From: an uncultured Gemmatimonadota bacterium
GTDB lineage: Bacteria > Gemmatimonadota > Gemmatimonadetes > Palauibacterales > Palauibacteraceae
Assembly: GCA_964613475.1 (NCBI GenBank)
Contig: CAZTGV010000004.1
Span: forward strand, 12,375-76,374
Direction: 5' to 3'
Length of the DNA: 64,000 nucleotides
Shown: positions 1,512-16,452 of the stretch, piece after piece
Layout: each line of letters begins with the position of its first letter
Position numbering within the stretch: the stretch's first letter is position 1
The notes under the pieces: model-generated
Told to the model about the DNA's origin: nothing
What the model saw: the letters and a program-made list of their open reading frames with translations, nothing else
Database searches by the model: none
Program-made: the position numbers and the translations under genes

Positions 1512-1590
1512 CGCTCGCCTCCTCCCCGTTTCCGTGCGACCGCCCGGCCCGGCCCGCGCCGGCGCGCCGGGCGCGGAACCACGTCTCAAC

Positions 1591-2193
1591 CTAGATCAGG
1601 TAGACGATCGTGAACAGTACGATCCACACCAGATCGACGAAGTGCCAGTACAGGCCCAGCACCTCGATTCCCTGGAAGTTCTCGGCCGACCAGCGGCCCC
1701 GGAACGCCTCCACCAGGGCCCACGCGAGGCAGACCACCCCGCAGAACACGTGGAAGCCGTGGAAGCCGGTCATCGTGTAGAACGTGGCGCCGTAGAGGCC
1801 CGACTGCGGCGTGAAGCCGTGCGCCACCAGCTCCCGGTACTCGTAGGCCTGCACGCCGAGGAACGTCGCGCCGAGGAGGAGCGTCAGCCCCAGGTAGAGC
1901 CGGATTCCCCGGGTGTCGCCCTTCTCCGCCGCCGCGAACGCCTTCACCATGCTGACGCTGCTGCAGATCAGGATGAAGGTGTTCACCGCCGTGACCGGCA
2001 CGTTCAGCACCTCGCCCGGCGCCGCCCAGCTCTCCGAGGCCCCGAACCGGAGGACGACGTAGGTGCCGATCAGGGCGGAGAAGAACATCACCTCGGAGCC
2101 GAGGAACATCCACATCCCCACCTTCTTGGTGTAGACGTCGAGCCCCCGCTCGGGGGCCCGGTCGACCGTTCCGGCCGTCGCGTGGGCGGCCAT
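1591..2193 (-). CDS. ctaE: cytochrome c oxidase subunit III
   Basis: 200 aa with motifs FFSALIGTYVVLRF, TGFHGFHVFCGV and YWHFVDLVWIVLFTIVYL. It abuts subunit I. Confidence 0.9.
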   Translation of the reverse strand: MAAHATAGTVDRAPERGLDVYTKKVGMWMFLGSEVMFFSALIGTYVVLRFGASESWAAPGEVLNVPVTAVNTFILICSSVSMVKAFAAAEKGDTRGIRLYLGLTLLLGATFLGVQAYEYRELVAHGFTPQSGLYGATFYTMTGFHGFHVFCGVVCLAWALVEAFRGRWSAENFQGIEVLGLYWHFVDLVWIVLFTIVYLI

Positions 2194-4019: not shown

Positions 4020-4080
4020 CGCTAGCTGCCCTCCGTGGAGTTGCCGGCCCCCGCCGCGCCCGCGCCCGCGCCGGGCCGCC

Positions 4081-4749
4081 TCACCGCCCCTGCCCCGACT
4101 GCTCGCGCGTCCACGCCTCGTACGTCCCCGGCTCGTGGATGACTACCCGGCCGCGCATCCGGTAATGGCCGAGCCCGCACAGCTCCGCGCAGCCGATCTC
4201 CATCTCCCCCGGCTCCGTCGCCTCGAACCAGACGGGGATCGTCATCCCCGGGACCGCGTCCTGCTTCACCCGCAGCTGCGGGATGAAGAAGGAGTGGATC
4301 ACGTCCTCCGACTGGAGCCGCACCACGACCGGCTCGCCGGCCGGGATGTGGAACTGGTTGCGGATCGTGAAATCGTCCTCCGTGCCGGGCGTGCCGTCCA
4401 CCCCCGGGTAGGCCACGTTCCACTCGAACTGCTTGGCCGTCACGTCCAGCGTCAGGGCGTCCGCCGGGAAGGACGTCTCGCTCCGGATGTCGGCCCAGAT
4501 GCTGCCGCTGTAGACCCCCAGGAAGACGAGCACCAGCGCGGGCACCGCCGTCCACAGGATCTCCAGCCGCTTGCTCCCGTGGGTGTAGCGCGCCCGCCGG
4601 CCCTCGCGGCGGCGGTACTTGAAGGCGAACCACAGGATCCCGAGCTCGACCAGCACGAAGGCGATGCCCGTGATCACGAGGATGATCAGGAACAGCCGGT
4701 CGATCGGGATCCCGTGGATCGACAGGTTCGCTGGAAGCGACCAGTGCAC
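4081..4749 (-). CDS. ctaC: cytochrome c oxidase subunit II (CuA, no fused cytochrome c domain)
   Basis: Two N-terminal TM helices and the CuA site DVIHSFFIP...CAELCGLGHYRM. The 222-aa length leaves no room for a fused heme c domain. Confidence 0.95.
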   Translation of the reverse strand: MHWSLPANLSIHGIPIDRLFLIILVITGIAFVLVELGILWFAFKYRRREGRRARYTHGSKRLEILWTAVPALVLVFLGVYSGSIWADIRSETSFPADALTLDVTAKQFEWNVAYPGVDGTPGTEDDFTIRNQFHIPAGEPVVVRLQSEDVIHSFFIPQLRVKQDAVPGMTIPVWFEATEPGEMEIGCAELCGLGHYRMRGRVVIHEPGTYEAWTREQSGQGR

Positions 4750-4800
4750 GGCGTCTCCTCCCTGGCTCGGTTGGACGCGCGGAGGGGGAGCGGGGGCGCC

Positions 4801-5773: not shown

Positions 5774-7312
5774 TCAGGCGGCGCCTCCACGCTGCGCCCG
5801 GCGAACCACGACCACGCCGATCCCGGCCGTGAGCAGGATCGCGATCAGGGGCGACACGTACAGCATGCGGGATCGAGGCTCCTCGAGCACAAGATAATAC
5901 CAGGATCCGATCGCGCCGCGACCGGCCGTCTCGCCGCTCGAGCCGTCCCAGGCGTAGAAGGCGACCGGCACCGCCCCTCCTTCGGGGAAGGCGAGCCCCT
6001 CCCCTTCCGTCGCCAGCGGCCGCCGGAAGACCAGGCGCCACTGGCCACGCTCGAAGGTGGCGCGCCCCTCCAGCGCGCCGTCCGGCAGCGGCTCCAGCTC
6101 GACGAGCCCGCGGGCCCGCCGCTCGCTCGACCCCTCCGCGCTGTCCCAGTGCCACAGGTAGACCGGCGCCCGTGCGCTGCCCATGAGGAAATAGGGCCGG
6201 TCCATCCCCGTCGGTGGCTCGAAGGGAAACTGCACGGCGAAGGCGTCCGGAACGGGATCGGTCGGGATCGGCATCTCGTCGTCGTGCAACGTCCGGGCGA
6301 GCTTCTCCTGCCACTCCGTCCAGCCCGGATCCGGGCTCCGGGAGGGATCGTTCCACGCGAGCCGGAGCGCCAGCGTCTCGCCGTCGTGGAGCCCCTGCAC
6401 CCAGACTCCCCGCACCATGGGCGCGAAGCTCCGCGGCGGCTCGATGATCTGTCCGGCCAAGGGGAAATAGTAGCGCTCCACCTCGTCCCAGGCGGGGTCG
6501 TCGGGTTCGCTCGGCGGCGGCTCGTCCCGCCGCGTCACCCTCACCACCTCCCGAAGCGGGGGCGCGCGGGGCGCGCTCAGCGAGGCCACGTAGTGGGCCA
6601 AATGCCAGAGCTCGTCCTGGGTCACGATCCCGGCCTCGACGGCGTCCATCTGGGTCGGCATCGGCGTCCCGTCCAACCCTGTCAGCATGCGCCGATGGAC
6701 CTGCTCGGCCCCGGGGCCGCCGTCGAACAGCCAGGCCATCGTGAGGTCGGCCGCCCGGACCGGGAGGCCGCGCCAGTCCTCCAGGGTGGGCGCGGAGGAT
6801 CCGTCGCCGCGCCCCGCCTCCCCGTGGCAGCGGTTGCACTCCAGCGTCTCGTACGCCGCGCGCCCGGATTCGAGCGCCTCGTCCCCGCCCCCGGGGTCGG
6901 GCGGGAAGGAGAGCGCCTCCGCGGTCTCCTGCTCGAAGAAGGGGGAGAGCGTCTTGAGGTAGGCCACCACATCCCGCTGCTCCGCCGAGGAGAGGTTCGG
7001 CCAGCCCGGCATGGTGGTCCCGGGAATCCCGTCGCGCAGCACGCGGAGCAGGTCCTCGTCCGTCGGGAGCTGTCCCGTGCCGGTGGTCCGCACCTGGTAG
7101 CGGGCCGCGACGAAGTCCCTCGGCCGCGGGAGCATGTGGGTGGCGGCCGGGCCGTCGCCCTCCCCCTCCGCACCGTGGCACTCCGCGCACCAGCGGTCGT
7201 ACACCCGCTCGCCGGCCTCGGCGTCTTGCCCCGCGGCGCCGCCCGCCAGGAAGCCCACGAGCCCCGCCGCCAGCCCGAGCACCGCAGCCGGGATTCGCGC
7301 CCGCCCGATCAT
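5774..7312 (-). CDS. membrane-anchored diheme cytochrome c fused to an EB_dh/DOMON-like heme-binding domain
   Basis: ATG at 7312 forms an ATGA overlap with the upstream stop. Signal-like N-terminus MIGRARIPAAVLGLAAGLVGFLAG. Two CxxCH sites (CAECHG, CNRCHG). The C-terminal half (AFAVQFPF...YLWHW...VAFYAWDGS) resembles the ethylbenzene-dehydrogenase-type heme domain. There is a terminal TM helix. Confidence 0.75.
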   Translation of the reverse strand: MIGRARIPAAVLGLAAGLVGFLAGGAAGQDAEAGERVYDRWCAECHGAEGEGDGPAATHMLPRPRDFVAARYQVRTTGTGQLPTDEDLLRVLRDGIPGTTMPGWPNLSSAEQRDVVAYLKTLSPFFEQETAEALSFPPDPGGGDEALESGRAAYETLECNRCHGEAGRGDGSSAPTLEDWRGLPVRAADLTMAWLFDGGPGAEQVHRRMLTGLDGTPMPTQMDAVEAGIVTQDELWHLAHYVASLSAPRAPPLREVVRVTRRDEPPPSEPDDPAWDEVERYYFPLAGQIIEPPRSFAPMVRGVWVQGLHDGETLALRLAWNDPSRSPDPGWTEWQEKLARTLHDDEMPIPTDPVPDAFAVQFPFEPPTGMDRPYFLMGSARAPVYLWHWDSAEGSSERRARGLVELEPLPDGALEGRATFERGQWRLVFRRPLATEGEGLAFPEGGAVPVAFYAWDGSSGETAGRGAIGSWYYLVLEEPRSRMLYVSPLIAILLTAGIGVVVVRRAQRGGAA

Positions 7313-8151
7313 TCCGCCTCCCCCACCATCTCCTCCCACGTCCTGGGCGTGGCGCCCGTCTGATCGTACAGGAAGACGATCAGGGACCAGATCTCGTCCT
7401 GCTCCAGGATCTCCTCCCAGGCGGGCATGGCGGAGTTCCACGGGGCGCCCTCGCGCGGCAGGCCCGGGCCGCCCTTGGCGATCCGCCAGAACACGTAGCT
7501 CTCGGTGAGCTGCGGGAGCGTGCCGGAGCTGGTGAAGTCCGCCGGGACCGGGTTGAACGCGGCGGCGAAGTGCCCGTCGCCCGCCAGGCGGTCGCCGTGG
7601 CACGGCACGCAGTTGCGCGCGTAGAGCGCCGCCCCGCGCCGCACGTGCTCCTCCAGGGAGCCGCGGTGCCGCAGGGGGTTCTCGAGCCCCGCCAGCCGGA
7701 TCGTCTCGCCGCGGAAGGAGATCTGGGTGGGTGGGGCCGGGTGCACGGAGCGCAGCCCCGCCGGGGCGGCGTAGCTCGGCGAGACCGCCCGGTAGGTGAA
7801 CCAGCCGGCGAGCAGGGGCACCGTCACCAGCAGCGCGAGCCGCAGCCCCCGCCGCTGGGGGTCCACCAGCGTGCGGCGCACCGGCTCCCGGAAGCGCCGC
7901 CAGCGTTCCTCGTCGGCGCTGACGAAGAGCAGCACGCCGACCAGCACGGTGGCCATGTACTGGAGGATCACGCTCCGCGGTACCGGCGCGCTCGGGACGC
8001 CCACCACGGGCAGGAGGTAGCCGATCCCGTACTCGAACACGAGATAGGCGACCGCCAGCACCAGGACGGCCTGCCAGAAGGGATGCGTGAGGAGCCGGCG
8101 CACACCCCGCGCCTCGCCGCTCCCACGCCGCTCCGGAGGGCCGGCGCTCAT
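7309..8151 (-). CDS. membrane-bound monoheme cytochrome c
   Basis: Two N-terminal TM helices followed by NCVPCHGD and a distal AMPAW region. It has ATGA overlaps with both neighbours. Confidence 0.75.
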   Translation of the reverse strand: MSAGPPERRGSGEARGVRRLLTHPFWQAVLVLAVAYLVFEYGIGYLLPVVGVPSAPVPRSVILQYMATVLVGVLLFVSADEERWRRFREPVRRTLVDPQRRGLRLALLVTVPLLAGWFTYRAVSPSYAAPAGLRSVHPAPPTQISFRGETIRLAGLENPLRHRGSLEEHVRRGAALYARNCVPCHGDRLAGDGHFAAAFNPVPADFTSSGTLPQLTESYVFWRIAKGGPGLPREGAPWNSAMPAWEEILEQDEIWSLIVFLYDQTGATPRTWEEMVGEAE

Positions 8152-8987
8152 CGCAGGCTCTCCATGAAGTCGAGCAGCGCCTCCAGCTCCGCGGCCGTCA
8201 TCCGCTGGCCGAAATCCGCCGGCATGGTACCGGCGAAGGCCTCGAATCCGGGCGCCGTGTCCGCCCCGGGCACGAGGATCGCCCTCCGGAGCTCGGCGCG
8301 GTCCCCGCGCATCGCCTCGAACGCCGGCCCGACCGGGCCGCCCTCACCCCCGAGCTGGTGGCAGGCGAGGCACCCGTACGCCTCGACCAGGGCGCGGCCG
8401 CGCTCCGCGTCCGCGCCGCCGGCCGCACCCGCCGGCCCGCCGCCGGCCACCTCGCCGTCCGCCTCGGCCGCGCCGGCCGGCGTCCCTTCCCCGATCGGTG
8501 CGCCTTCCCCGGCCGGCGCCCCGCCGGACGCCTCGGCGATTTCGGCCGCCGTGACCGTCACCTCCCCGCCCTGGCTCTCGAGGAAGGCGACGAGCGCCCA
8601 CACCTGGGGCTCTCCGAGCGTCCGGCCGAAGTTCGGCATGATCGGTTGGAAGCCCTCCACGACGTGCGCGTTCGGGTCCGCCAGGGACTGGTGCAGGTAG
8701 TCCCGGCAGGAGATCTCCGGCACCCGCGTCTCGCACACCTGTCCGGCGACCCCGATCAGTTCGGGAGCCCGTGTCCCCGTCCCGTGGCACGCCTCGCAGC
8801 CGCCCACCCCTCGGTAGATCCGCTCGCCCATCGCCACCAGCTCCTCGGTCGTCGTCTCCGGGCCGATCTCGACCGCGGCCGCCTCGGGAACCTCCGATTC
8901 CACCTGCGGGATGGCGTTGGCCACCAGCGTGTACAGACCGAGGGTGACCACGATGACCAGCGCGATGTTCAGGTTCGTCCGCCACAC
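8148..8987 (-). CDS. membrane-anchored diheme cytochrome c
   Basis: N-terminal TM anchor NIALVIVVTLGLYTLVANA. Two CxxCH sites (GGCEACHG, YGCLACHQ), each followed by a PIMPNF/MPADF-type Met region. Confidence 0.8.
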   Translation of the reverse strand: MWRTNLNIALVIVVTLGLYTLVANAIPQVESEVPEAAAVEIGPETTTEELVAMGERIYRGVGGCEACHGTGTRAPELIGVAGQVCETRVPEISCRDYLHQSLADPNAHVVEGFQPIMPNFGRTLGEPQVWALVAFLESQGGEVTVTAAEIAEASGGAPAGEGAPIGEGTPAGAAEADGEVAGGGPAGAAGGADAERGRALVEAYGCLACHQLGGEGGPVGPAFEAMRGDRAELRRAILVPGADTAPGFEAFAGTMPADFGQRMTAAELEALLDFMESLR

Positions 8988-8991: not shown

Positions 8992-10842
8992 TCAGCCCTC
9001 CCCGCCCCGCGGCCCGCCGCCCGCCACCACCGGCCGTGCGCCGCCGGGGACGGCCGGCGCCAGCCCCTTCGCCACCACCGGCTTCTCCGCCAGGCCGCCG
9101 AGCCAGAAGATCAGCCCGACCAGCCCGAAGAAGAGGAGCACGCAGAGGCTGATCATGGTGGCCGCCGGGCCGAGGGCCGGGGTCGCGGCCTGCGCGCTCG
9201 TGTCTCGGATCACCTCCCAGACGTGCCAGTGCTGCCGGATCCCGCTCCGCGCGAAGCCCATCAGCCCCATCAGCCAGGTGAAGGTGACCGCGAGGATGAA
9301 GAGGGCGTACTGGGAGCGCGCCGGCATCTCCCCCCAGCGGATCGGACCACGCGACCGGGCGCCGCGCAGCATCGCGATGTCGATCCCGAGGACGAACAGG
9401 ATGGTCGCGAGCACGGCCAGCACCTGATAGACGCTGAAGCCGATCCGGACGATCGCGGTCACGAAGTAACCGTAGATCCCGTAGAAGAGCACCACGGCCG
9501 CCGCCAGGACGAAGGCCGCGCCCTGGGCCGTCGTGCCGGCGCGCGCCCAGGACACCGTCGGCTCCTTGTTCGCCCGGCGGTACATCATGAACGAGAGGAA
9601 GGTGGTGAGGATCATCAGGTTCACGGCCGTGTTCTTCGCGCTCATCACGCCGAGGACCCCGAGGAAGGGATGGTGCGTCCCGCCCATGGCCGCGATCTCG
9701 TCGCGTCCCGCGATCATCGTGTGCGGCGTCGCCCACACGATGACCCCGAGGACGAGCACGGCCAGCATCCACTTCACGTAGGGCTCGAAGCGCTCGCCGC
9801 CCGGGATCCGCCCGAAGCCGACCCACAGGTAGTAGTTGCCGGCGAGGAAGAGGACGCCGATGAGGAAGGCCTGGATGATCCAGAGCCAGCTCATGAAGCC
9901 GCCCATCATGGTGATCCCCATCGACTGGTCGTACTCGTAGATCTCCCGCCCCAGCCAGTAGCCGGCGAAGGGGAGCACGATCAGGAAACCGATGGCGATG
10001 AAGTTCCCCGTATAGCCCATCCAGTCGTAGTGGGCCCGCTCCTCCCGCGTCCGCGCGGCCAGGAAGCGGTAGGCGGCGTAGGCGCCCACGATCGCGCCGC
10101 CGAACACGACGTTCGCCAGCAGCCGGTGGATGTTGATCGGCATCCAGGTCGCGTTGGCGATCGCGGTCCACAGGCCGATCTCGGCGGCCGCGGTCTCGGG
10201 GGTCATCCCCTCCGGCGGGCTCATCATGTAGGTGAGCCAGGAGTTCGCGATGAACATCACCAGGGTGCCCCACACGTTCAGCGCCACTCCGAGCCCGAGG
10301 TGGACGCCCTTCGCCATGCCCTCCTTCCACTGCTCCCACCCGTAGTAGTAGAGGTAGAGCGTGAAGGACTCCACGAAGAAAAGGCCCGCGTACGCCCACA
10401 TGGAGGGGGCGAAGATCTCGGTCAGGTGCCGCCAGAAGGTGGGGTACAGGGTGGAGAGGAAGAAGACGAGCACGGCGCCCCAGATGGCCGTCGCCGAGTA
10501 GGCCACCAGCAGGAGCCGCGTGAATTCCTTGGCCAGCTTGTCGTAGCGCTCCTGCTTCGTGAAGTGGCCGACCGCCTCGACCACGACCGCGAACATCGGC
10601 ACGCCGAGCACGAAGGCGGCGAAGAGCAGGTGGAGCTGCGCCGCGATCCACACGGCGCCCCGCGGGCCGACGAGCGGAAACTCGCCGTAGTCCATCGCCG
10701 CTTCCTGCGCGCCGGCCGGGACGGCCAGGAGCGCGGCGAGGGCCGCGGCCGCCCCGAGGGCGAGGGCCGCGCGCGCCGCGGCCCGTCGGCTCCCGCCCGC
10801 CTTCCGCCCGGGGATCGCGGCCCGCCCGGCGCGGGGGCTCAC
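8992..10842 (-). CDS. cytochrome bd subunit I (CydA)-like membrane protein, no adjacent cydB
   Basis: Helix 1 reads AAQLHLLFAAFVLGVPMF, comparable to E. coli CydA YHFLFVPLTLG. The protein is polytopic. The GTG at 10842 forms a GTGA overlap with the radical SAM stop and adds a signal-like RRAAARAALALGAAAALAALLAVPAGAQ. An alternative start is the ATG at 10695 (MDYGEF). The ORF-track extension up to 12060 overlaps the radical SAM gene and is rejected. Confidence 0.8.
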   Translation of the reverse strand: MSPRAGRAAIPGRKAGGSRRAAARAALALGAAAALAALLAVPAGAQEAAMDYGEFPLVGPRGAVWIAAQLHLLFAAFVLGVPMFAVVVEAVGHFTKQERYDKLAKEFTRLLLVAYSATAIWGAVLVFFLSTLYPTFWRHLTEIFAPSMWAYAGLFFVESFTLYLYYYGWEQWKEGMAKGVHLGLGVALNVWGTLVMFIANSWLTYMMSPPEGMTPETAAAEIGLWTAIANATWMPINIHRLLANVVFGGAIVGAYAAYRFLAARTREERAHYDWMGYTGNFIAIGFLIVLPFAGYWLGREIYEYDQSMGITMMGGFMSWLWIIQAFLIGVLFLAGNYYLWVGFGRIPGGERFEPYVKWMLAVLVLGVIVWATPHTMIAGRDEIAAMGGTHHPFLGVLGVMSAKNTAVNLMILTTFLSFMMYRRANKEPTVSWARAGTTAQGAAFVLAAAVVLFYGIYGYFVTAIVRIGFSVYQVLAVLATILFVLGIDIAMLRGARSRGPIRWGEMPARSQYALFILAVTFTWLMGLMGFARSGIRQHWHVWEVIRDTSAQAATPALGPAATMISLCVLLFFGLVGLIFWLGGLAEKPVVAKGLAPAVPGGARPVVAGGGPRGGEG

Positions 10843-12221
10843 GCCTCGTCCTCCCCCGCCCGGGCGAAGAAGGGAAGCCGCCGCGAGAAGTCCACGGGCA
10901 GCGCGCGGCGCACCTCGGCCATCACCTCCGGCGTGACCCGCTCGTAGCCCCGCTCGCGGGCGAACGCCTCCACCCGCCCCGCCACGACGCCGCGCACGAA
11001 CGAGGGAATCCCCTCCAGCCGCGCCTCCGCCTCGGGCGACCAGGAGAGCTCGCGCCGCGCCGGGTCCCCGTAGCGGAGCCTCCGGGCCGGACGCACGGGC
11101 GGCCGCATCCCCTCGGGCTCGTACGCGCAGGAGGGGTCCGGCCCGAGCGGGTCGCCGTCCACCGCGTACGCGCGGGCCCGGCAGCCGCCGCACACCTCCC
11201 GGTACTCGCAGCGCCCGCACTTCCCGCCCAGGGAGCCCTCCCGCAGGAGCCGGAAGAGGCGGCTGTCGCGCCAGATGTCGGAGAAGGACGCCTTCGCCAG
11301 GTCTCCGGCCACCGCGGGCAGGTAGGGACAGGGGGTGACCTTCCCCTCCGGGGTGATCCGGCAATACTGCACGCCGCACGGGCAGCGCGTCCGGTAGTGC
11401 AGCAGGGGCGACTCCGGGTCGCGCTCGAAGACGTGGCGCATGAGCTGGGGCTGGCACTTGGACCGGATCATGAGCCGACCGCGCCAGGCGCGCTGGAGCT
11501 CCACGAGCTCCCGGAGGACCTCGTCGTTCTCCTCCGGCGCCAGCCCCCGCATGCCGGCGCCGCGCCCGGTCTCGACCAGGAAGTAGACGTTCACGCACAC
11601 CGCGCCGGCCGAGGCCGCCCAGCCGACGATCGAGCCGAGCTCGTCCCGGTTGCCACGGGTGAGGCTCGTCTGGACGAGGAAGTCCAGCTTCCGCATCCGC
11701 AGGCGCTCCACGGCCGCCAACGTGTCCGCCAGGGCCCCATCGCCGTGCCGGAAGCGGTCGTGGTAGCGGGGGTCGAGCGAGTCGATGCTCAGCGCCACCC
11801 CGCGCACGCCTGCCTCCTTGAGCGAGGCGATCCGGGCGTCGGTGAGCCGGGTGCCGTTCGTCCCGACCACCACGGTGGCGCCGCCGCCGCTCGCCCGCGC
11901 GGCGATCGTCTCCAGGTCCTCGCGCAGGAGCGGCTCGCCGCCGCTCAGGATGAGGAGGACCGCCGGGTTGGCCGCCAGGACCTGGTCCACCACCTCCAAC
12001 GCGCGGGCGGTGTCCAGCTCCCCGGCGGCGGTGTGCCAGGCCCCGGCCGAGATGTAGCAATGGGCACAGGCCAGGTTGCAGCGTCGGGTGAGGTTCCAGG
12101 CGATGACGTGCGGGACCGCGGCCGCATCGGCGCCGGAACGCTCCGCCGTCCGGGACTCCCGCAGCCGGGCCGCGAGCCCCCGCGACGCCAGGGCCGCCCC
12201 CGCGTCCCTCGCGCCCCTCAC
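10839..12221 (-). CDS. radical SAM/SPASM enzyme (NirJ/AhbC/AhbD-like) with C-terminal PCP_red-like domain
   Basis: GTG at 12221 forms a GTGA overlap with the upstream stop. Radical SAM cluster motif CNLACAHC. SPASM cysteines CPCGVQYC...CPYL...GKCGRCEYREVCGGCRARAY. C-terminal segment WSPEAEARLEGIPSFVRGVVAGRVEAFARERGYERVTPEVM. Confidence 0.85.
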   Translation of the reverse strand: MRGARDAGAALASRGLAARLRESRTAERSGADAAAVPHVIAWNLTRRCNLACAHCYISAGAWHTAAGELDTARALEVVDQVLAANPAVLLILSGGEPLLREDLETIAARASGGGATVVVGTNGTRLTDARIASLKEAGVRGVALSIDSLDPRYHDRFRHGDGALADTLAAVERLRMRKLDFLVQTSLTRGNRDELGSIVGWAASAGAVCVNVYFLVETGRGAGMRGLAPEENDEVLRELVELQRAWRGRLMIRSKCQPQLMRHVFERDPESPLLHYRTRCPCGVQYCRITPEGKVTPCPYLPAVAGDLAKASFSDIWRDSRLFRLLREGSLGGKCGRCEYREVCGGCRARAYAVDGDPLGPDPSCAYEPEGMRPPVRPARRLRYGDPARRELSWSPEAEARLEGIPSFVRGVVAGRVEAFARERGYERVTPEVMAEVRRALPVDFSRRLPFFARAGEDEA

Positions 12222-14410
12222 GCCTCCTCGCCCCGCTTCCCCGCCTCGTCGGGGGAGCCGGAGCGCTCCTCCGCCATCATGCGACGCACCGCCGCTTCCG
12301 CCTCTTCGGCGGAGGCCAGCTTGAAGTCGACCGGACACTCCTTCGACTTCGCCTCGATGTCCCGGATCGGGCACCGCGTCACGCCGGACGCCTTCGCCTC
12401 CTCGATGAAGCGCTTCATCTCCGGGCTGAGCGCCTCCGCGCCCGCCGCCTCGGCGCGCGCCTGCTTCGCCTTCAGCTCGTTGAACATCACGAGCATCGTG
12501 TCCATGTCGAACTCGTCGGCGGCGATCATCGCCTCGCGGTTCTCGTCCATCACCCGGGTGGTGACCCGCCACAGCCCCTGACCGCGGGCGAAGCGCTCCA
12601 CCGTGTTGCGCGCCAGCGGGCGGGCGATCAGCGGAACCCGGCGCAGGCGCTCGAACGCCTCGTGCGTCCACACGATCGGATCCGCCTCGGTGCGGTCGCG
12701 GGTCGATTCGGTCCCGGTGACCGGGCAGCGGGCCCGGACGGGCGGCGGCGTCTCGAAGCGGTCTTCGTCGTGCGTCTCGACGACGGTGCGCTTCATCGCC
12801 TCCTCCGCCTTCACCTCGGCGAGGGCGATCTCCTCCGCGTCGCCGATGCCCATGACGAGCTGCATGTGGGTCGGGAGCAGCTTCTGGATCGCCTCGTCCA
12901 GCCGCTCGCCCGTCACCACCGGGAGGTCCTCCCGCCGCGGGGCGCGCTGGCCGTTCGCCCCCGCCCCCCCGTCCTTCCCGTTCGAGCGCGACGGACCGCC
13001 GGACCCGTTCGCCCACTCCGCGTCTCGGGCCCCCTCGCCCTCGGAGCGCCCGACCGGACGCGCCTTCCAGTCGTCCACGAAGGCCGCCGCGTAGCGGCTG
13101 CCGGGACCGTAATGCTCGAGCACGTACTCCTCCACCGCGCTCCGCGCGATCCCCTGCGCGAACGGGGGGACCCGGAGGATCCGCACCTCGGCGTCGGGCG
13201 CCCACTCGAGCCCCTGCTCCCCGTCCTCCTCGATCCACGGGATCTCATCCGGGCGGACGTCGGTGGTGCCGATGAGGAGCGTGTTGGCGGGCGCCAGGCG
13301 CGCCAGGTTCTCGGCCTGGCTCCCCAACTCGGTCCCCTCGATCCGGTGCGATCCGTGGCGAGCGAGGATGAGCAGGGAGGGCCGCACCTCCTCCATCCAC
13401 TGGAGGACGACCTGGAACGGCTTCCCGACCAGCACCTGCGTCTCCACCTCCACGTCGGGATACTCGCCCGCCATCACCTCGGCGCGCTTCAGGTTGGCCT
13501 GGCAGAGCCTGAGGAGTCCCTTGTCGATGATGTTGTTGTGAAGCTCCTCCTGCTCCTCGAACTTGAAGACCTTGGAGGCCTGGACGGAGAGCACGTCCTT
13601 GATGTTGTGGAAGACGACGTGGTGGTACTGCACGTCGAAGGCGCTGCACACGTAGAGCTCGACGCCGAACTCGCGCGCCATCTCGAGCGCCACCCGCATG
13701 CCCTTGTAGGCGTAGGCGGAGCCGTCCACGCACACCATGAACGGGCCCTCGGCGAGCGGGCGCCCGTCCCGCACGATGAGCGCGTCCTTGCGGATCCCGC
13801 GGAGCGCGCGCGAGACCACGCCGCCGAGCTGGCTCGCGGGCTGGCGGCCGAGCCCGTGCGCGCCGATCACGACCAGGTCGTAGTCACGTCCGGAGCTTCC
13901 GGCGAGCTTCTCCTCCCGGCTCTCCTCCTCGGCCACGAGCCGGCCGTCCTCGCCCACCTGCACGTCCCCCCGCACGGTGGAGCCCCCGTCGTAGTTGTGC
14001 GCGATGTTCGGATCGAAGCCGATCAGGCTGGGCAGCCGCCCTTCCCCGCCGTTCGCCTCCTTGACGATCTCCTCGAAGTTGATGCCCTCCAGGAGCTGGC
14101 GGGTGAGGGGGACGCCGGCCGCTTCGCACCGACGATGGACCTGGTCGAGGAAGCTGTCCGAGATGAGCTGGAGGCCCTTCTCGATCAGCTTGTCGTGGAT
14201 CCGGCGCTGCCGCCGGATCTCGTCCGGGGCCTGGAACTGGGCGGGAAGGCCGATCTCGAGCTGACGGAAGCGGACGTCGTGCAGCCGGGCGGCGTACACG
14301 TGGGTGCCGGTGATCCGGCCGCCGGAGCGCTCGCAGATCTCGATCGCGCGGTCGACCGCCCAATCGGAGTGCTCCGAGTTGTCGACCGGTACGAGAAGCT
14401 CTCCGTACAT
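12218..14410 (-). CDS. tandem universal stress protein (USP-USP) fused to two PCP_red-like domains
   Basis: ATG at 14410 is preceded by GGAG. USP motifs DLVVIGAHGLGRQPASQLGGVVSRAL and SLLILARHGSHRIEGTELGSQAENLA. PCP_red-like segments are LEWAPDAEVRILRVPPFAQGIARSAVEEY and IVWTHEAFERLRRVPLIARPLARNTVERFARGQG. Confidence 0.8.
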   Translation of the reverse strand: MYGELLVPVDNSEHSDWAVDRAIEICERSGGRITGTHVYAARLHDVRFRQLEIGLPAQFQAPDEIRRQRRIHDKLIEKGLQLISDSFLDQVHRRCEAAGVPLTRQLLEGINFEEIVKEANGGEGRLPSLIGFDPNIAHNYDGGSTVRGDVQVGEDGRLVAEEESREEKLAGSSGRDYDLVVIGAHGLGRQPASQLGGVVSRALRGIRKDALIVRDGRPLAEGPFMVCVDGSAYAYKGMRVALEMAREFGVELYVCSAFDVQYHHVVFHNIKDVLSVQASKVFKFEEQEELHNNIIDKGLLRLCQANLKRAEVMAGEYPDVEVETQVLVGKPFQVVLQWMEEVRPSLLILARHGSHRIEGTELGSQAENLARLAPANTLLIGTTDVRPDEIPWIEEDGEQGLEWAPDAEVRILRVPPFAQGIARSAVEEYVLEHYGPGSRYAAAFVDDWKARPVGRSEGEGARDAEWANGSGGPSRSNGKDGGAGANGQRAPRREDLPVVTGERLDEAIQKLLPTHMQLVMGIGDAEEIALAEVKAEEAMKRTVVETHDEDRFETPPPVRARCPVTGTESTRDRTEADPIVWTHEAFERLRRVPLIARPLARNTVERFARGQGLWRVTTRVMDENREAMIAADEFDMDTMLVMFNELKAKQARAEAAGAEALSPEMKRFIEEAKASGVTRCPIRDIEAKSKECPVDFKLASAEEAEAAVRRMMAEERSGSPDEAGKRGEEA

Positions 14411-14688
14411 CCGCGCTCCGGGCCTCGAGTGACGTGAGGGCGATCGAGCGTGCCGGCGGCGGCCGGCGGGCGAGGCGGCTCCGAACCGCACGAACCCGGA
14501 GGGCCCCTCGGAGGGGTCCGGACCGGTCGCGCAGTCTTTGGATCTATGACCGCTTACGAGCCCGCGGCTCGCCCGTGTCGTATCGATGCCGTCCCCCGCG
14601 CCCGGACGGGTGGCGGAGGACTCGTCCTCGGCTTCCATAAGCTGTTTCGGTGCCGGGCCTTCGGAGCGGCCCGGCGAGCGCCGCAGAA

Positions 14689-14717
14689 TCTATATCGCCG
14701 GGGACCCGGGAAGTCAA
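14689..14717 (-). promoter_or_regulatory. candidate sigma-70-type promoter for the USP / radical SAM / CydA-like transcription unit
   Basis: The minus strand reads TTGACT-N17-TATAGATT. It is one of the few AT-richer islands in a 400-nt non-coding gap and lies about 280 nt upstream of the ATG at 14410. Confidence 0.35.
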
Positions 14718-14811
14718 ACGCCCGGCGCCCGGCTGCCGGGCTCGGAGCCGGCGATGCATCCCGGGCCGCCGGGCGCCCGAAGCGCCGGGAGCAGTGGGCG
14801 GGGACCGGGGG

Positions 14812-15051
14812 TCACGGAACCAGATAGCGCCCCCCCTCGTCCCGCACGGTGATCGCGTCCACCGGGCAGGCGGCGCACGCCTCCAGCAAGCGCTCCCGAG
14901 TCACGGCGTCGGGGTGCAGGAACACCGCGATCCCGTCCTCGTCCAGCTCGAACGCGTCCGGGGCGGCGGTGACGCAGTCGCCGAAGCCCACGCACAGGTC
15001 CCGGTCGATCCGCACTTCCAGCCCGTGCACGCGCTTCACCGAGTCGTCCAC
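14812..15051 (-). CDS. small single-cluster ferredoxin ([3Fe-4S]/[4Fe-4S] type)
   Basis: 79 aa. DRDLCVGFGDCVTAAPDAFELDEDG...ACAACPVDAI matches the pattern of small actinobacterial-type ferredoxins. Confidence 0.8.
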   Translation of the reverse strand: MDDSVKRVHGLEVRIDRDLCVGFGDCVTAAPDAFELDEDGIAVFLHPDAVTRERLLEACAACPVDAITVRDEGGRYLVP

Positions 15052-15115
15052 GCGTCCCTTTCTTCCCGCGTCCCCGCCGGGGTCTCCGGCGAGCTTCGCG
15101 CGCCCCCGGCCCGCA

Positions 15116-15550
15116 TCACATGCCCTCCAGCCCGAGCTCGGTCCGCGCCCGATCCATGATCTCCGGGGTGATCTCCTCGATCTCCCGCTCCTTCGCCCAG
15201 TCGGCGTAGATCCGCTTCACCATCCCGCGCACGAAGCTCGGCACGCGCTCGAGCCGCTCCACCGCCTCCAGGCTCCACCTCACCGGTGCGGCGCGCTGGT
15301 CGCGGAAGGCGTCCGGTCGCCCCTCCCGGACCGAGCCGCGGACCAGCTCCATCGGCTGCTCGGGGACCGTCCGCCCCCCCACCTTCACGCCCAGGCTGCT
15401 CACGAGCTGCGTCTCCATCGGATTGGTGAGCAGGGCGGTCTTGCGGCCGCACGCCGGGCAGCGGAACACCGCGGCCAGGGTGCCGTCCCCGGGAACCGCC
15501 CGTTCCTCGAAGGCCATCTGCCGGTCGCACTCGACGCACAGGAACTTCAT
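15116..15550 (-). CDS. zinc-ribbon protein with C-terminal PCP_red-like domain
   Basis: ATG at 15550 forms an ATGA overlap with the Mrp stop. N-terminal CVEC...CPAC zinc ribbon. C-terminal segment RWSLEAVERLERVPSFVRGMVKRIYADWAKEREIEEITPEIM. Confidence 0.7.
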   Translation of the reverse strand: MKFLCVECDRQMAFEERAVPGDGTLAAVFRCPACGRKTALLTNPMETQLVSSLGVKVGGRTVPEQPMELVRGSVREGRPDAFRDQRAAPVRWSLEAVERLERVPSFVRGMVKRIYADWAKEREIEEITPEIMDRARTELGLEGM

Positions 15551-16452
15551 GGCTCCCGTCTCGCTCCGCGCTCCGACGATCGCGACTCTTCCAGGAGCCG
15601 ATCCGTCAGGGCGCGCAAGCCCCGCCCCGCCGCGGTCTCGAGGAGACCGGCCGGGTCCCCCGCCTCGGCGCGCTCCGCCGCCCCCGGATCGAAGGGAAGC
15701 CGGCCGAGCAGGGGCACGCCGAACCGCGTGGCCAGCGCCCGCCCGGCGTCCCCCGGAAAGAGGGGCGAGAGCTCGGAGCAGCCCGGACAGGCGTAGCCGG
15801 CCATGTTCTCGACGATCCCGAGCACCCGGATGCCGCGCCCCTCGCACAGCGCGAGCGCGCGCTCCACGGACGCCCGCGAGGCGCCGGAGGGGAGGGTGAC
15901 CGCCACCGCGCCTTCGAGGTCCGGCGCGAGCCCGGCCAGCTCCAGCAGCCGCTGGGCGCCCGGGGGGAGGTCGACCACCAGCAGATCGCGCTCCCCCCAG
16001 GCCACGTCCGACAGGAACTCGCGGAGCGTCCCCCGCTCCTGGACCCCGCGCCACACGAAGCCCTCCGCTCCCGGCTCCCGCCACTCGAGCGGGCGGCCCT
16101 CCCCCAGGAAGAGGGAGGTGGCCATCAGCGCCACCCCCGCCGCCGTGTCGGCCGGCCGCACGCCGTTCGCGCCCACCTCCAGCGGCCCGGCGTCCGCCCC
16201 GAGCAGCCGGGCGGCGGTCGGACCGTTCAGGTCCGCGTCCAGCAGGCCCACCCGCCGGCCCGTCGCGGCGGCCGCCGCGGCCAGGCCGGCCGCGACCAGG
16301 CTCTTCCCCACCCCACCCTTGCCGCTGGTGACCGCGACCAGCCGACGGATGCCGGACAACCGGGCGGCGACCCTCTCCTCCTGCCGGCGCAGCTGACCGG
16401 GCAGGTCGGAGCCGTCCGCCTCCGACAGCTCGTGGTAGGTCCGGATCCGCAT
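15547..16452 (-). CDS. Mrp/NBP35/ApbC-family Fe-S cluster carrier ATPase
   Basis: ATG at 16452. Deviant Walker A VTSGKGGVGKS, VVDLPPG, and CPGC in GYACPGCSE. The ORF-track N-terminal extension to 17799 is R/P/G-rich and overlaps other genes. Confidence 0.9.
   Translation of the reverse strand: MRIRTYHELSEADGSDLPGQLRRQEERVAARLSGIRRLVAVTSGKGGVGKSLVAAGLAAAAAATGRRVGLLDADLNGPTAARLLGADAGPLEVGANGVRPADTAAGVALMATSLFLGEGRPLEWREPGAEGFVWRGVQERGTLREFLSDVAWGERDLLVVDLPPGAQRLLELAGLAPDLEGAVAVTLPSGASRASVERALALCEGRGIRVLGIVENMAGYACPGCSELSPLFPGDAGRALATRFGVPLLGRLPFDPGAAERAEAGDPAGLLETAAGRGLRALTDRLLEESRSSERGARREP

What the first reader, a model, noticed from the sequence alone, without database searches (positions are those of the whole stretch)
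10890..15285. Four copies of one ~50-aa PCP_red-like motif spread over three adjacent proteins
Directly visible alignment:
- Radical SAM C-terminus: WSPEAEARLEGIPSFVRGVVAGRVEAFARERGYERVTPEVM (Trp codon at 11040-11042).
- Zinc-ribbon protein C-terminus: WSLEAVERLERVPSFVRGMVKRIYADWAKEREIEEITPEIM (Trp at 15275-15277).
- USP protein copy 1: WAPDAEVRILRVPPFAQGIARSAVEEYVLEHYG (Trp at 13202-13204).
- USP protein copy 2: WTHEAFERLRRVPLIARPLARNTVERFARGQGLWRVTTRVM (Trp at 12668-12670).

The shared pattern is W-[ST/A]-x-[ED]-A-x-x-R-[LI]-x-x-[VI]-P-x-[FI]-[VA]-[RQ]-x-x-[VA]-x-x-x-[VI]-E-x-[FYW].

In copy 1 the C-terminal half appears to be separated by a Gly/Ser-rich insert. A possible continuation is VVTGERLDEAIQKLL, about 95 aa later.

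A small domain reused on an enzyme, a stress-sensor scaffold and a zinc-ribbon protein in one locus suggests a docking or ligand hand-off module rather than chance paralogy.
Basis: partly seen in the sequence, partly recalled or inferred. Interest (0 to 1): 0.72.

Follow-up and report, generated by a model that had tools for sequence, protein, structure and literature searches.

The report
Shared PCP_red domain beside terminal oxidases
Four real copies of a small helical domain otherwise known from the chlorophyll enzyme subunit BchB sit on a haem-type radical SAM enzyme, a stress-protein-like scaffold and a zinc-ribbon protein. This gene set recurs next to respiratory oxidase genes in several bacterial phyla, which points to an undescribed oxidase or haem maturation module.

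Summary
Pfam PCP_red (PF08369) matches the radical SAM protein (56 bits), the USP protein (58.8 bits, two stretches) and the zinc-ribbon protein (44.8 bits). No other copy exists in the 64-kb window.

USP copy 1 is one PCP_red domain interrupted by a disordered insert of about 62 aa. This insert is lineage-specific: 44 Gemmatimonadota orthologues and all distant homologues have the copy contiguous.

The host is a Gemmatimonadota bacterium. The genes form a conserved block: Mrp ATPase, Zn-ribbon-PCP_red, ferredoxin, USPx2-PCP_redx2, then an AhbD/NirJ2-like radical SAM-PCP_red. The radical SAM gene overlaps by 4 nt the start of a bd-like (OR-N/'TO_1'-type) oxidase operon, which is followed by an aa3 oxidase operon.

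The USP-PCP_red plus rSAM-PCP_red core carries 3-10 PCP_red copies per locus. It recurs in SAR324, Ca. Manganitrophus, Rokubacteria-like and other lineages. In 6 of 10 sampled distant loci it lies beside bd-like or aa3 oxidase genes. In one locus it is coupled to a protoporphyrinogen/coproporphyrinogen oxidase gene.

My best reading is a haem supply or insertion module for terminal oxidases, with PCP_red as the shared docking element. That mechanism is inferred, not shown. I found no literature on it.

The parts
10839..12221 (-). Radical SAM/SPASM enzyme with C-terminal PCP_red domain (460 aa), AhbD/NirJ2-like
   Evidence: Pfam Radical_SAM, SPASM and PCP_red. NCBIfam NirJ2 273 bits and AhbD 267 bits, both below the 500-bit cut-off. 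CX3CX2C at C48 and the AhbD-type CX2CX5CX2CX17C at C335. All these Cys are invariant in 60 homologues. AF2 pLDDT 85, pTM 0.85.
10908..11042 (-). PCP_red copy on the radical SAM protein (residues 394-438)
   Evidence: Pfam 56.3 bits, profile 1-45. Own HMM 80 bits at 10893-11048. Predicted strand-helix-helix-strand-helix with pLDDT 90-97.
12218..14410 (-). Tandem-USP protein with two PCP_red domains (730 aa)
   Evidence: Pfam Usp x2 and PCP_red x2. Orthologues are >=70% identical in more than 120 clusters, mostly named Gemmatimonadota. Its stop overlaps the rSAM start (GTGA).
13115..13204 (-). USP PCP_red copy 1, N-terminal two thirds (residues 403-432)
   Evidence: Pfam 26.4 bits, profile 1-30. 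Own HMM positions 1-33. pLDDT 84-91.
12923..13105 (-). Low-complexity Gly/Ser/Ala-rich insert that splits copy 1 (residues ~436-496)
   Evidence: Hypervariable in length, with invariant flanks. Absent or <=12 aa in 44 Gemmatimonadota orthologues and 23-74 aa in 21 others. pLDDT ~44.
12875..12922 (-). USP PCP_red copy 1, C-terminal third (residues 497-512, PVVTGERLDEAIQKLL)
   Evidence: Splicing it on raises the Pfam score to 34.6 bits with profile 1-44. Own HMM positions 31-52. Aligns with the third helix of contiguous copies in distant homologues. pLDDT 80-90.
12539..12670 (-). USP PCP_red copy 2 (residues 581-624)
   Evidence: Pfam 42.3 bits alone. Own HMM 79.7 bits. pLDDT 93-96. The model's best PDB matches are 2KRU and 2L09.
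14720..14741 (-). Terminator-like hairpin in the 400-nt gap between the ferredoxin and USP genes
   Evidence: Consensus scan found one site against 0.4 expected. This is only weak evidence for two transcription units.
14812..15051 (-). Small mono-cluster ferredoxin (79 aa; Cys 20, 26, 59, 62)
   Evidence: Pfam Fer4_13 and Fer4_15. Present in 66 of 84 related loci.
15116..15550 (-). Four-Cys zinc-ribbon protein with C-terminal PCP_red (144 aa; PCP_red = residues 92-136, 15143-15277)
   Evidence: Pfam PCP_red 44.8 bits. Best PDB sequence hit is 2L09, Asr4154, E=1.2e-5. C5, C8, C31 and C34 are >=95% conserved in 70 orthologues. A full-length orthologue at 37% identity lies next to a ParA/Mrp gene in distant locus L089.
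15547..16452 (-). Mrp/NBP35-type P-loop ATPase (Fe-S carrier family); its stop overlaps the Zn-ribbon start (ATGA)
   Evidence: Pfam ParA/NUBPL 188.5 bits. NCBIfam MrpORP 190 bits, below the cut-off of 450. GKGGVGKS and CPGC motifs and the overlap.
8992..10842 (-). CydA-like subunit of a cytochrome bd-like oxidase; its start overlaps the rSAM stop (GTGA)
   Evidence: Pfam Cyt_bd_oxida_I 78.9 bits. About 12-14 hydrophobic segments by a crude scan. Overlap shown. Follows the rSAM gene in 70 of 84 loci.
5774..8987 (-). Two cytochrome c genes (8148-8987, 7309-8151) and a dihaem cytochrome c with EB_dh haem-b domain (5774 to ~7310). These complete a 'TO_1'-type bd-like oxidase cluster.
   Evidence: Pfam. 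The composition matches the TO_1 description in bioRxiv 10.1101/2021.11.15.468770.
272..4800 (-). aa3-type haem-copper oxidase operon (COX2, COX1, COX3, COX4) and haem O synthase (UbiA/CtaB)
   Evidence: Pfam. The same order is conserved in Gemmatimonadota loci.

Best explanation
The four segments are true PCP_red domains (strand-helix-helix-strand-helix, about 45 aa). They tag three proteins of a conserved cytoplasmic accessory gene set that is co-transcribed with respiratory terminal oxidases.

I propose the set is a haem supply or insertion (maturation) module for the adjacent bd-like oxidase, and probably the aa3 oxidase:
1. The AhbD-like radical SAM/SPASM enzyme makes or hands over haem b. 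The most likely reaction is O2-independent decarboxylation of coproheme, or a related side-chain reaction.
2. The Mrp ATPase and the small ferredoxin supply its [4Fe-4S] clusters and electrons.
3. The tandem-USP protein is a nucleotide-responsive scaffold.
4. PCP_red is the common docking element. It brings the enzyme, the scaffold and the Zn-ribbon/Mrp pair together, which is why it appears once on each partner and in arrays on the scaffold.

Shown here:
- Domain identity and fold.
- The split of copy 1.
- The operon structure.
- Conservation of the gene set and its recurrence next to oxidase genes.
- The AhbD-type cluster motifs.

Inferred:
- The substrate of the radical SAM enzyme.
- The roles of Mrp, ferredoxin and USP.
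- That PCP_red mediates protein-protein docking.
For: Domain identity:
- Pfam E-values of 1e-11 to 1e-16.
- The model of USP residues 391-730 has 2KRU (TM 0.75, rmsd 0.9 A), 2L09 and ChlB 2YNM_D as its best PDB matches.
- The same secondary-structure pattern appears in all three modelled copies.

Operon:
- 4-nt overlaps at Mrp/Zn, USP/rSAM and rSAM/CydA-like.

Conservation:
- The order Mrp-ZnPCP-Fdx-USP-rSAM-CydA-cyt c-cyt c-...-COX2-COX1 holds in nearly all Gemmatimonadota loci with enough flank.
- The USP-PCP_red plus rSAM-PCP_red core also occurs in SAR324, Ca. Manganitrophus and four unnamed lineages.
- Those loci carry 3-10 PCP_red copies each.

Oxidase link:
- 6 of 10 distant loci have CydA-like or COX genes within 10 kb: L085, L086, L087, L088, L089, L091.
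- A seventh (L092) has cytochrome c/EB_dh genes.

Haem link:
- The best NCBIfam matches are NirJ2 and AhbD. At about 270 bits they score roughly twice as high as the peptide maturases.
- The auxiliary motif CX2CX5CX2CX17C is the one reported for AhbD (PMC10114771).
- In L092 a TIGR00562 protoporphyrinogen-oxidase-family gene (240 bits, cut-off 98) overlaps the rSAM-PCP_red stop.
- CtaA/CtaB genes lie beside the USP gene in L088 and L089.
- HemW is a precedent for a radical-SAM-family haem chaperone serving a respiratory enzyme (PMC10114771).

Docking:
- The Mrp gene is paired with a small Zn-ribbon-PCP_red gene in distant lineages.
- The rSAM model has pTM 0.85, with linker and PCP_red at pLDDT ~90. 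This suggests a fixed rather than floppy placement.
Against: - There is no experimental or structural evidence that PCP_red binds a protein partner or a tetrapyrrole.
- The radical SAM enzyme falls well below the curated cut-offs for AhbD and NirJ2, so its substrate is unknown.
- Its nearest solved structures are peptide- or protein-modifying SPASM enzymes such as PqqE, SkfB and SuiB. However, a sequence search of the PDB with the rSAM found no AhbD or NirJ entry.
- Mrp and ferredoxin are missing from the SAR324 and Manganitrophus loci.
- Three of ten distant loci show no oxidase nearby.
- These lineages are mostly aerobes, for which an O2-independent haem step is not obviously needed.
Confidence: 0.4

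Rival explanations
1. PCP_red is the receptor for a SIMIBI-class Fe-S ATPase. In DPOR, BchB carries PCP_red and is served by ferredoxin and the ATPase BchL. Here the PCP_red-tagged proteins would be clients of the Mrp ATPase. Mrp would deliver [4Fe-4S] clusters, or ATP-driven low-potential electrons, to the three-cluster radical SAM enzyme. On this reading the system concerns Fe-S or electron supply, whatever the enzyme's substrate.
For: - The same trio (ferredoxin, P-loop Fe-S ATPase, PCP_red protein) is present as in DPOR.
- The Mrp and Zn-ribbon-PCP_red genes overlap.
- That pair recurs in L001, L089 and L091, and Mrp is also present in L088.
- In cryo-EM DPOR structures BchL contacts only BchB (PMC12022308).
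Against: - No Mrp gene lies within 10 kb in the SAR324, Manganitrophus, L087 or L092 loci, although PCP_red arrays are present there.
- I could not check whether BchB residues 467-531 touch BchL.
- Mrp-family proteins are known as cluster carriers, not electron donors (established knowledge of ApbC/Nbp35).
Confidence: 0.2
2. PCP_red is itself a small tetrapyrrole-binding carrier domain. The arrays on the USP protein would act as beads-on-a-string carriers that take haem or a precursor from the radical SAM enzyme and hand it to the oxidase.
For: - The only characterised host, BchB, is a tetrapyrrole enzyme.
- The new host is a tetrapyrrole-type radical SAM enzyme.
- The arrays hold 3-10 copies separated by flexible linkers, a layout typical of carrier domains.
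- The family signature includes conserved Trp and Arg residues, which could stack on a macrocycle and bind propionates. This last point is inference.
Against: - The names of the two solved stand-alone PCP_red entries (2KRU, 2L09) mention no ligand.
- In BchB the substrate-covering helix is a different segment, residues 398-420.
- The conserved residues may simply hold the fold together.
Confidence: 0.15
3. The set is regulatory or protein-modifying, not haem-related. The tandem-USP protein would sense nucleotide or redox state and control oxidase expression or activity, perhaps under low O2. PCP_red would be a homotypic oligomerisation module. The SPASM radical SAM enzyme would modify a peptide or an oxidase subunit.
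For: - The nearest solved structures are peptide- or protein-modifying SPASM enzymes.
- USP proteins encoded next to electron-transport operons rise under low O2 in Nitrospira marina (PMC8115632).
- Sensor kinase and sigma-54 regulator genes lie beside the core in L003, L085 and L092.
Against: - No candidate precursor peptide gene is conserved next to the rSAM (gene tables).
- Sequence similarity is clearly highest to the AhbD/NirJ clade.
- The N. marina USPs were not shown to be of the PCP_red type.
Confidence: 0.15
4. The repeats have no shared function. They would be relics of domain shuffling that happen to lie in neighbouring genes.
For: Small helical domains are easily duplicated and shuffled. 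The domain number per protein varies widely between lineages.
Against: - The domains are under strong purifying selection, with invariant W, P, R and A columns across 34-87% identical homologues.
- The co-location of PCP_red on the rSAM and on the USP protein is kept across phyla.
- Copy 1 keeps both halves intact despite a variable insert.
Confidence: 0.03

Closest known systems
C-terminal PCP_red domain of BchB/ChlB in dark-operative protochlorophyllide oxidoreductase (PF08369; PDB 3AEK, 2XDQ, 2YNM, 8VQI)
   Same: Same Pfam family and signature (W-x-x-E-A...R-L...V/I-P-x-F-x-R...). Same predicted fold. Also appended to the C-terminus of an Fe-S enzyme that acts, or probably acts, on a tetrapyrrole. 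A ferredoxin and a P-loop Fe-S ATPase are part of the system.
   Different: The host enzyme is a radical SAM/SPASM protein, not a nitrogenase-like BchN/BchB. No BchN or BchL was seen among the annotated neighbours. The domain also occurs on a USP scaffold, in arrays, and on a Zn-ribbon protein. The ATPase is Mrp/NBP35-type, not NifH/BchL-type. The context is respiration, not chlorophyll synthesis.
Stand-alone PCP_red proteins solved by NMR (Asr4154 of Nostoc, 2L09; Chlorobium domain, 2KRU)
   Same: Best sequence match (E=1.2e-5) and best fold matches (TM 0.74-0.75).
   Different: Those are single-domain proteins of about 62 aa. I found no function described for them. Here the domain is fused to three different partners within one operon.
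AhbD (haem b synthase) and NirJ/NirJ2 (haem d1) radical SAM/SPASM enzymes
   Same: Best NCBIfam matches over the full core (267-273 bits). Carries CX3CX2C plus the AhbD-type CX2CX5CX2CX17C auxiliary motif (PMC10114771).
   Different: Scores are about half the curated cut-offs (500 bits). The protein has an extra C-terminal PCP_red domain. It is not in an Ahb or Nir gene cluster but is coupled to an oxidase gene.
HemW, the radical-SAM-family haem chaperone for respiratory enzymes
   Same: A functional analogy only: a radical-SAM-type protein that delivers haem b to a membrane respiratory complex (PMC10114771).
   Different: It belongs to a different radical SAM subfamily (HemN/CgdH-like) and has no PCP_red. 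I did not test homology.
Cytochrome bd-like (OR-N, 'TO_1') terminal oxidase clusters of Nitrospirota and relatives
   Same: The downstream genes (CydA-like, two cytochromes c, cytochrome c with EB_dh haem-b domain) match the published TO_1 composition. The distant USP-PCP_red homologues come from Nitrospinota, Ca. Manganitrophus and SAR324. The first two are lineages discussed for these oxidases in the papers I found.
   Different: The papers I could search describe the oxidase genes only. They do not mention the radical SAM/USP/PCP_red accessory genes.
Mrp/ApbC/NBP35 Fe-S carrier ATPases (e.g. MrpORP)
   Same: Deviant Walker A GKGGVGKS and a CPGC cluster-bridging motif. ParA/NUBPL profile at 188 bits.
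   Different: Below the MrpORP and ApbC equivalog cut-offs. It is genetically paired with a Zn-ribbon-PCP_red protein, a pairing I found no description of.

Membership tests
Pfam PCP_red (PF08369) | Profile score at or above the gathering cut-off (32.5 bits) | tested here: met
   rSAM 56.3 bits, USP 58.8 bits (copy 2 alone 42.3), Zn-ribbon protein 44.8 bits. Copy 1 alone scores 26.4 bits, below the cut-off. With the insert removed it scores 34.6 bits, above the cut-off.
Pfam PCP_red (PF08369) | Fold of the solved PCP_red domains (2KRU, 2L09, C-terminus of ChlB) | tested here: met
   The AF2 model of USP 391-730 has 2KRU (TM 0.75, rmsd 0.9 A over 50 columns), 2L09 (TM 0.74) and 2YNM_D as its best PDB matches. 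Foldseek E-values are weak (0.2-4) because the domain is short. The tool does not say which copy aligned. The Zn-ribbon copy was not modelled.
DPOR (BchL/BchN/BchB system) | PCP_red fused to a nitrogenase-like BchB, with BchN and BchL partners | tested here: not met
   The host proteins are radical SAM/SPASM, USP and Zn-ribbon proteins. NCBIfam BchB models match only the last ~55 residues. No BchN or BchL was found among the ORFs I annotated between 272 and 28393. The rest of the window was not annotated.
AhbD haem b synthase (TIGR04545) | Equivalog score >= 500 bits | tested here: not met
   267.2 bits.
AhbD haem b synthase (TIGR04545) | CX3CX2C radical SAM motif plus C-terminal CX2CX5CX2CX17C auxiliary-cluster motif | tested here: met
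   C48-C52-C55 and C335...C365. All are invariant in 60 homologues. Motif definition from PMC10114771.
AhbD haem b synthase (TIGR04545) | Converts coproheme to haem b | not testable with these tools
   This needs an enzyme assay.
NirJ2 (TIGR04055) | Equivalog score >= 500 bits and a nir/haem d1 gene context | tested here: not met
   273.1 bits. No nir genes among the neighbours.
Universal stress protein (PF00582), tandem type | Two Usp domains above the cut-off | tested here: met
   92 bits, two stretches. The G-x2-G-x9-G-[ST] nucleotide motif is intact in distant homologues and degenerate in the window protein (LGGV; A-R-H-G), read directly from the alignment.
Mrp/NBP35 Fe-S carrier ATPases | ParA/NUBPL profile, deviant Walker A, CxxC motif | tested here: met
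   188.5 bits. GKGGVGKS at residue 44 and CPGC at residue 222. The MrpORP and ApbC equivalog cut-offs are not reached.
Cytochrome bd-like OR-N / TO_1 oxidase cluster | CydA-like subunit with many TM helices, plus two cytochromes c and a periplasmic EB_dh cytochrome b | tested here: met
   Pfam. About 12-14 hydrophobic segments by a crude scan. Composition as described in bioRxiv 10.1101/2021.11.15.468770. The OR-N subfamily was not assigned by phylogeny, and the haem ligands were not checked.

The most novel reading that the evidence does not exclude
PCP_red is a portable adaptor. It is either a docking tag for P-loop Fe-S ATPases or a tetrapyrrole carrier. It defines a previously unrecognised, multi-phylum maturation system made of an AhbD-like radical SAM enzyme, USP-PCP_red arrays and a Zn-ribbon-PCP_red/Mrp pair. 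That system would make or insert the haem cofactors of bd-like (OR-N) and aa3 terminal oxidases. It would also explain why BchB carries the same domain.
Probability: 0.25. Interest if true: 0.75.

Novelty: new variant of a known kind. Interest (0 to 1): 0.55.

Why it matters
The cofactor content and assembly of bd-like (OR-N) oxidases are not settled in the papers I read. These enzymes are proposed as main terminal oxidases in nitrite- and manganese-oxidising bacteria. None of the papers I could read describes a role for the PCP_red domain, even within DPOR.

This gene set is conserved and translationally coupled to the oxidase. It contains a haem-type radical SAM enzyme and repeated PCP_red domains. 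That gives concrete candidates for oxidase maturation factors. It also offers a tractable way to ask what PCP_red does: binding assays with 45-residue domains, knock-outs and multimer models.

If the radical SAM enzyme proves to be a divergent AhbD, it would extend O2-independent haem b synthesis to Gemmatimonadota, Nitrospirota and SAR324.

If none of this holds, the finding remains an ordinary case of a known domain occurring in a conserved operon.

Tried and rejected
Literature:
- Searches for 'PCP_red' and 'PF08369' returned only irrelevant or list-type hits.
- 'cytochrome bd-like' plus 'radical SAM' returned nothing.
- The OR-N, Manganitrophaceae and Nitrospirales papers do not mention the accessory genes.
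- The DPOR structure papers of Moser 2013 and Brocker 2010 are not held. Those I could read do not discuss BchB residues 467-531. I therefore could not test whether PCP_red contacts BchL or the substrate.

Database look-ups:
- An exact look-up of the window's own USP protein found no contig.
- The single genome-contig scan returned only Gemmatimonadota among its best 80 loci, of more than 588 relatives. Cross-phylum context rests on ten hand-picked look-ups.

Structure:
- Foldseek E-values for the USP fragment are weak because the matching domain is short. I relied on probability, TM-score and rmsd instead.
- Foldseek and PDB sequence searches with the rSAM gave only generic SPASM enzymes. They do not decide the substrate.

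Other negatives:
- Rfam found nothing in 10000-18000.
- No sigma-70-like promoter was found.
- My first script for classifying split versus contiguous copy 1 mixed in rSAM ORFs. I redid it restricted to the USP reading frame.

Rejected ideas:
- I considered and dropped the idea that HemC (18333-19310) belongs to the cluster. It is present in only 4 of 84 loci, and the genes beyond it are unrelated housekeeping.

Full report
**Observation.** The window has 72-78% G+C, and every gene of interest lies on the minus strand. Using start codons and the ORF list, I set these gene models:
- radical SAM protein: 10839-12221 (460 aa)
- USP protein: 12218-14410 (730 aa)
- ferredoxin: 14812-15051 (79 aa)
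- zinc-ribbon protein: 15116-15550 (144 aa)
- Mrp-type ATPase: 15547-16452 (301 aa)

Pfam assigns PCP_red (PF08369, cut-off 32.5 bits) as follows:
- radical SAM C-terminus: 56.3 bits, E=3.3e-15, residues 394-438
- USP protein: 58.8 bits, E=5.3e-16, two stretches
- zinc-ribbon protein: 44.8 bits, E=1.3e-11, residues 92-136

I built an HMM from domain copies found in homologues and ran it over the six-frame translation of all 64 kb. It finds only these copies. Ungapped identity among the four 48-residue segments is 29-50%. Its 17-residue core fits all four and nothing else in 121,133 translated residues. One correction is needed: a ferredoxin gene and a 400-nt gap separate the USP gene from the zinc-ribbon gene, so the three proteins are not strictly adjacent.

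**The split copy.** Several lines of evidence show that USP copy 1 is one PCP_red domain cut by an insert.
- Alone, copy 1 scores 26.4 bits and covers only profile positions 1-30. Joined to VVTGERLDEAIQKLL it scores 34.6 bits and covers positions 1-44.
- My HMM matches positions 1-33 at 13112-13210 and the complementary positions 31-52 at 12872-12937.
- In 17 close orthologues the stretch between 'VLEHYG' and 'LPxVTGERLDEAI' varies greatly in length, while both flanks are invariant.
- Among Gemmatimonadota orthologues whose reading frame I could follow, 44 have copy 1 contiguous. An example is L060...VEEFVLEQGGDIVTNPRLDEAIRKLL. Another 24 have it split; for 21 of these the C-terminal part was detected, with inserts of 23-74 residues.
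- In distant homologues (34-46% identity) the first copy is always contiguous.
- An AlphaFold2 model of USP residues 391-730, built with 60 homologues, gives pLDDT 84-91 for the first part, about 44 for the insert and 80-90 for the continuation.
- Copy 1 in that model has the same strand-helix-helix-strand-helix pattern as copy 2 (pLDDT 93-96) and as the copy on the radical SAM protein.
- The model's best PDB matches are the two solved PCP_red domains: 2KRU (TM 0.75, rmsd 0.9 A) and 2L09 (TM 0.74), followed by ChlB 2YNM_D.

**The host proteins.**

*Radical SAM protein.*
- It has Radical_SAM and SPASM domains.
- Its best NCBIfam matches are NirJ2 (273 bits) and AhbD haem b synthase (267 bits). 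Both are about half the curated cut-off of 500. They score roughly twice as high as the peptide maturases PqqE and MftC.
- It carries CX3CX2C at C48 and CX2CX5CX2CX17C at C335. The latter is the auxiliary-cluster motif reported for AhbD (PMC10114771). All of these Cys are invariant in 60 homologues.
- Its model is confident (pLDDT 85, pTM 0.85). The 30-residue linker and the PCP_red domain are at about 90. This suggests that the domain sits at a fixed place on the enzyme. I could not inspect coordinates.
- The nearest solved structures are generic SPASM enzymes such as PqqE, SkfB and SuiB. A sequence search of the PDB with the rSAM found no AhbD or NirJ entry.

*USP protein.* It has two Usp domains followed by the two PCP_red copies. 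Its tail carries three invariant cysteines.

*Zinc-ribbon protein.* It has four Cys that are >=95% conserved in 70 orthologues, then a variable linker and the PCP_red domain.

*Mrp-type ATPase.* It has GKGGVGKS and CPGC motifs.

*Operon structure.* Four-nucleotide overlaps join Mrp to the zinc-ribbon gene, the USP gene to the radical SAM gene, and the radical SAM gene to the next gene. A terminator-like hairpin follows the ferredoxin gene. This hints at two transcription units.

**Surroundings.** The gene that overlaps the radical SAM stop encodes a CydA-like protein (Cyt_bd_oxida_I, about 12-14 hydrophobic segments). It is followed by two cytochrome c genes and a dihaem cytochrome c with an EB_dh haem-b domain. 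This is the composition published for the 'TO_1' bd-like terminal oxidase of Nitrospirota (bioRxiv 10.1101/2021.11.15.468770). It also fits the OR-N family of Murali and colleagues. Further downstream lie a CarboxypepD_reg-like protein, an aa3-type oxidase operon and haem O synthase. Upstream of Mrp the genes are unrelated housekeeping.

**Distribution.**
- The organism is a Gemmatimonadota bacterium. USP orthologues of 70-87% identity are named Ca. Palauibacter, Longimicrobiales or Gemmatimonadota.
- In 80 Gemmatimonadota genomes the order is conserved wherever the contig is long enough: Mrp, ZnPCP, ferredoxin, USP, rSAM, CydA-like, cytochrome c, cytochrome c, CarboxypepD_reg, COX2, COX1.
- At the 50%-identity level the USP-PCP_red family has 244 representatives with E<=1e-30.
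- Named distant members come from Nitrospinota, Mariprofundaceae, Ca. Manganitrophus, SAR324, Rokubacteria/Methylomirabilota and Terriglobales.
- These distant members carry two Usp domains followed by 3-6 PCP_red copies. Rubredoxin-like zinc ribbons are often interspersed.

Ten distant loci were inspected:

| Locus | Source | Contents |
|---|---|---|
| L085 | SAR324 | bd-like oxidase genes, then rSAM-PCP_red, a 315-aa PCP_red protein, USP-PCP_red |
| L087 | unnamed | bd-like oxidase genes, rSAM-PCP_red, a 1147-aa USP-PCP_red |
| L091 | unnamed | COX, bd-like, rSAM-PCP_red, USP-PCP_red, ParA/Mrp and a small PCP_red protein |
| L088 | unnamed | COX/CtaB beside the USP gene; rSAM-PCP_red and Mrp nearby |
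| L089 | unnamed | COX/CtaA/CtaB beside the USP gene; Mrp plus a full-length ZnPCP orthologue (37% identity) nearby |
| L086 | unnamed | Rieske, cytochrome b and CydA-like genes |
| L092 | unnamed | cytochrome c/EB_dh genes; a protoporphyrinogen-oxidase-family gene (TIGR00562, 240 bits, cut-off 98) overlaps the rSAM-PCP_red stop |
| L003 | Ca. Manganitrophus | USP-PCP_red, rSAM-PCP_red and a four-copy PCP_red protein (ten copies in all); no oxidase within 10 kb |
| L004 | Nitrospinota | USP gene with no oxidase gene nearby |
| L090 | unnamed | USP gene with no oxidase gene nearby |

The constant core is therefore USP-PCP_red plus rSAM-PCP_red, usually with a further PCP_red protein. The Mrp/ZnPCP pair and the oxidase neighbourhood are frequent but not universal.

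**How it most likely works.** Three things are firm. PCP_red is kept, in several copies, on the same set of partners across phyla. Those partners are expressed together with terminal oxidases. The enzyme among them belongs to the radical SAM clade whose characterised members all remodel haem-type tetrapyrrole side chains.

From this I infer a cytoplasmic haem supply or insertion module for the oxidases:
- The AhbD-like enzyme provides or hands over haem b.
- Mrp and ferredoxin keep its clusters loaded and reduced.
- The USP protein is a nucleotide-responsive scaffold.
- PCP_red is the common docking element.

Precedents are stand-alone AhbD in coproporphyrin-pathway organisms (PMC13564367) and HemW, a radical-SAM-family haem chaperone for nitrate reductase (PMC10114771).

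The main rivals differ on what PCP_red binds:
- the Mrp ATPase, by analogy with BchL-BchB;
- the tetrapyrrole itself, as a carrier array;
- other PCP_red domains, in a regulatory complex.

None of these could be tested here. I put 0.4 on the haem-maturation and docking reading.

**Comparison with what is known.**
- The segments are members of Pfam PCP_red by score and fold.
- They are not part of DPOR. The hosts are not BchB-like, and no BchN or BchL is nearby.
- The substrate-covering 'cap' helix of BchB is residues 398-420. PCP_red corresponds to residues 467-531.
- The radical SAM enzyme works like, but is not a certified member of, AhbD or NirJ2. The motif is met but the score cut-offs are not.
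- Databases already list these proteins as 'universal stress protein', 'radical SAM protein' or 'PCP reductase family protein', so the domain architecture itself is not new.
- I could not find any description of the gene set, of its link to bd-like and aa3 oxidases, or of a function for PCP_red outside or even inside DPOR.

**Verdict.** This is a real, conserved feature. The domain is known, but it sits in an uncharacterised, multi-phylum, oxidase-associated gene set. The hand-off idea is plausible but untested. Interest is moderate (0.55). It would be higher if PCP_red proves to be the adaptor of a new haem or oxidase maturation system.

Noticed in passing
window 5774-10842 and 272-4800: A bd-like (OR-N/'TO_1'-type) oxidase cluster lies directly upstream of an aa3-type oxidase operon and haem O synthase. 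It comprises a CydA-like subunit, two cytochromes c and a cytochrome c with an EB_dh domain. This tandem arrangement is conserved across Gemmatimonadota loci.
   Followed up: partly
window 13886-14050 (USP residues ~121-175): The first Usp domain carries an insert of about 50 residues (GGEGRLPSLIGFDPNIAHNYDGG...EEKLAG). It is nearly invariant in Gemmatimonadota and absent from all distant homologues (alignments).
   Followed up: no
window 12335-12727 (USP residues C562, C680, C692): Three invariant cysteines, each followed by Pro, lie in the C-terminal part of the USP protein. In the alignment the window's tail region (residues ~650-710) falls opposite a further PCP_red-like copy of distant homologues, some of which also carry rubredoxin-like CxxC...CPxC ribbons. 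The cysteines may be a degenerate metal site or a relic of further PCP_red/rubredoxin units.
   Followed up: no
window 14411-14811: A 400-nt non-coding gap lies between the ferredoxin and USP genes. It contains a terminator-like hairpin at 14741-14720 on the minus strand. There is no Rfam match and no sigma-70-like promoter.
   Followed up: partly
window 16464-17000: An ORF with about four hydrophobic segments and no Pfam or NCBIfam match lies just upstream of Mrp. Similar ORFs sit beside Mrp/ZnPCP in 29 of 84 related loci.
   Followed up: partly
L092:14245-15681: A protoporphyrinogen-oxidase-family gene (PgoX/CgoX, TIGR00562, 240 bits, above the cut-off) overlaps the stop of a 666-aa rSAM-PCP_red gene. 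This is the most direct genomic link between this system and late haem synthesis.
   Followed up: partly
L003:10001-15672 (Ca. Manganitrophus noduliformans): There are ten PCP_red copies in three consecutive genes: five on the USP protein, one on the rSAM and four on a 330-aa protein. A CopD/UPF0093-like membrane protein follows.
   Followed up: partly
window 4801-5790; also L001, L088, L092: A CarboxypepD_reg-like (beta-sandwich) protein recurs next to COX2 or the USP gene in distant lineages. Large HEAT-repeat proteins flank the core in L085 and L092.
   Followed up: no
one search hit list (P0216, P0235) and L049, L051: Radical SAM and USP homologues of 67-78% identity are labelled Limnocylindrales, Thermoanaerobaculia, Acidobacteriota or Acidimicrobiia. 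This reflects either recent transfer between phyla or mis-binned Gemmatimonadota contigs.
   Followed up: no
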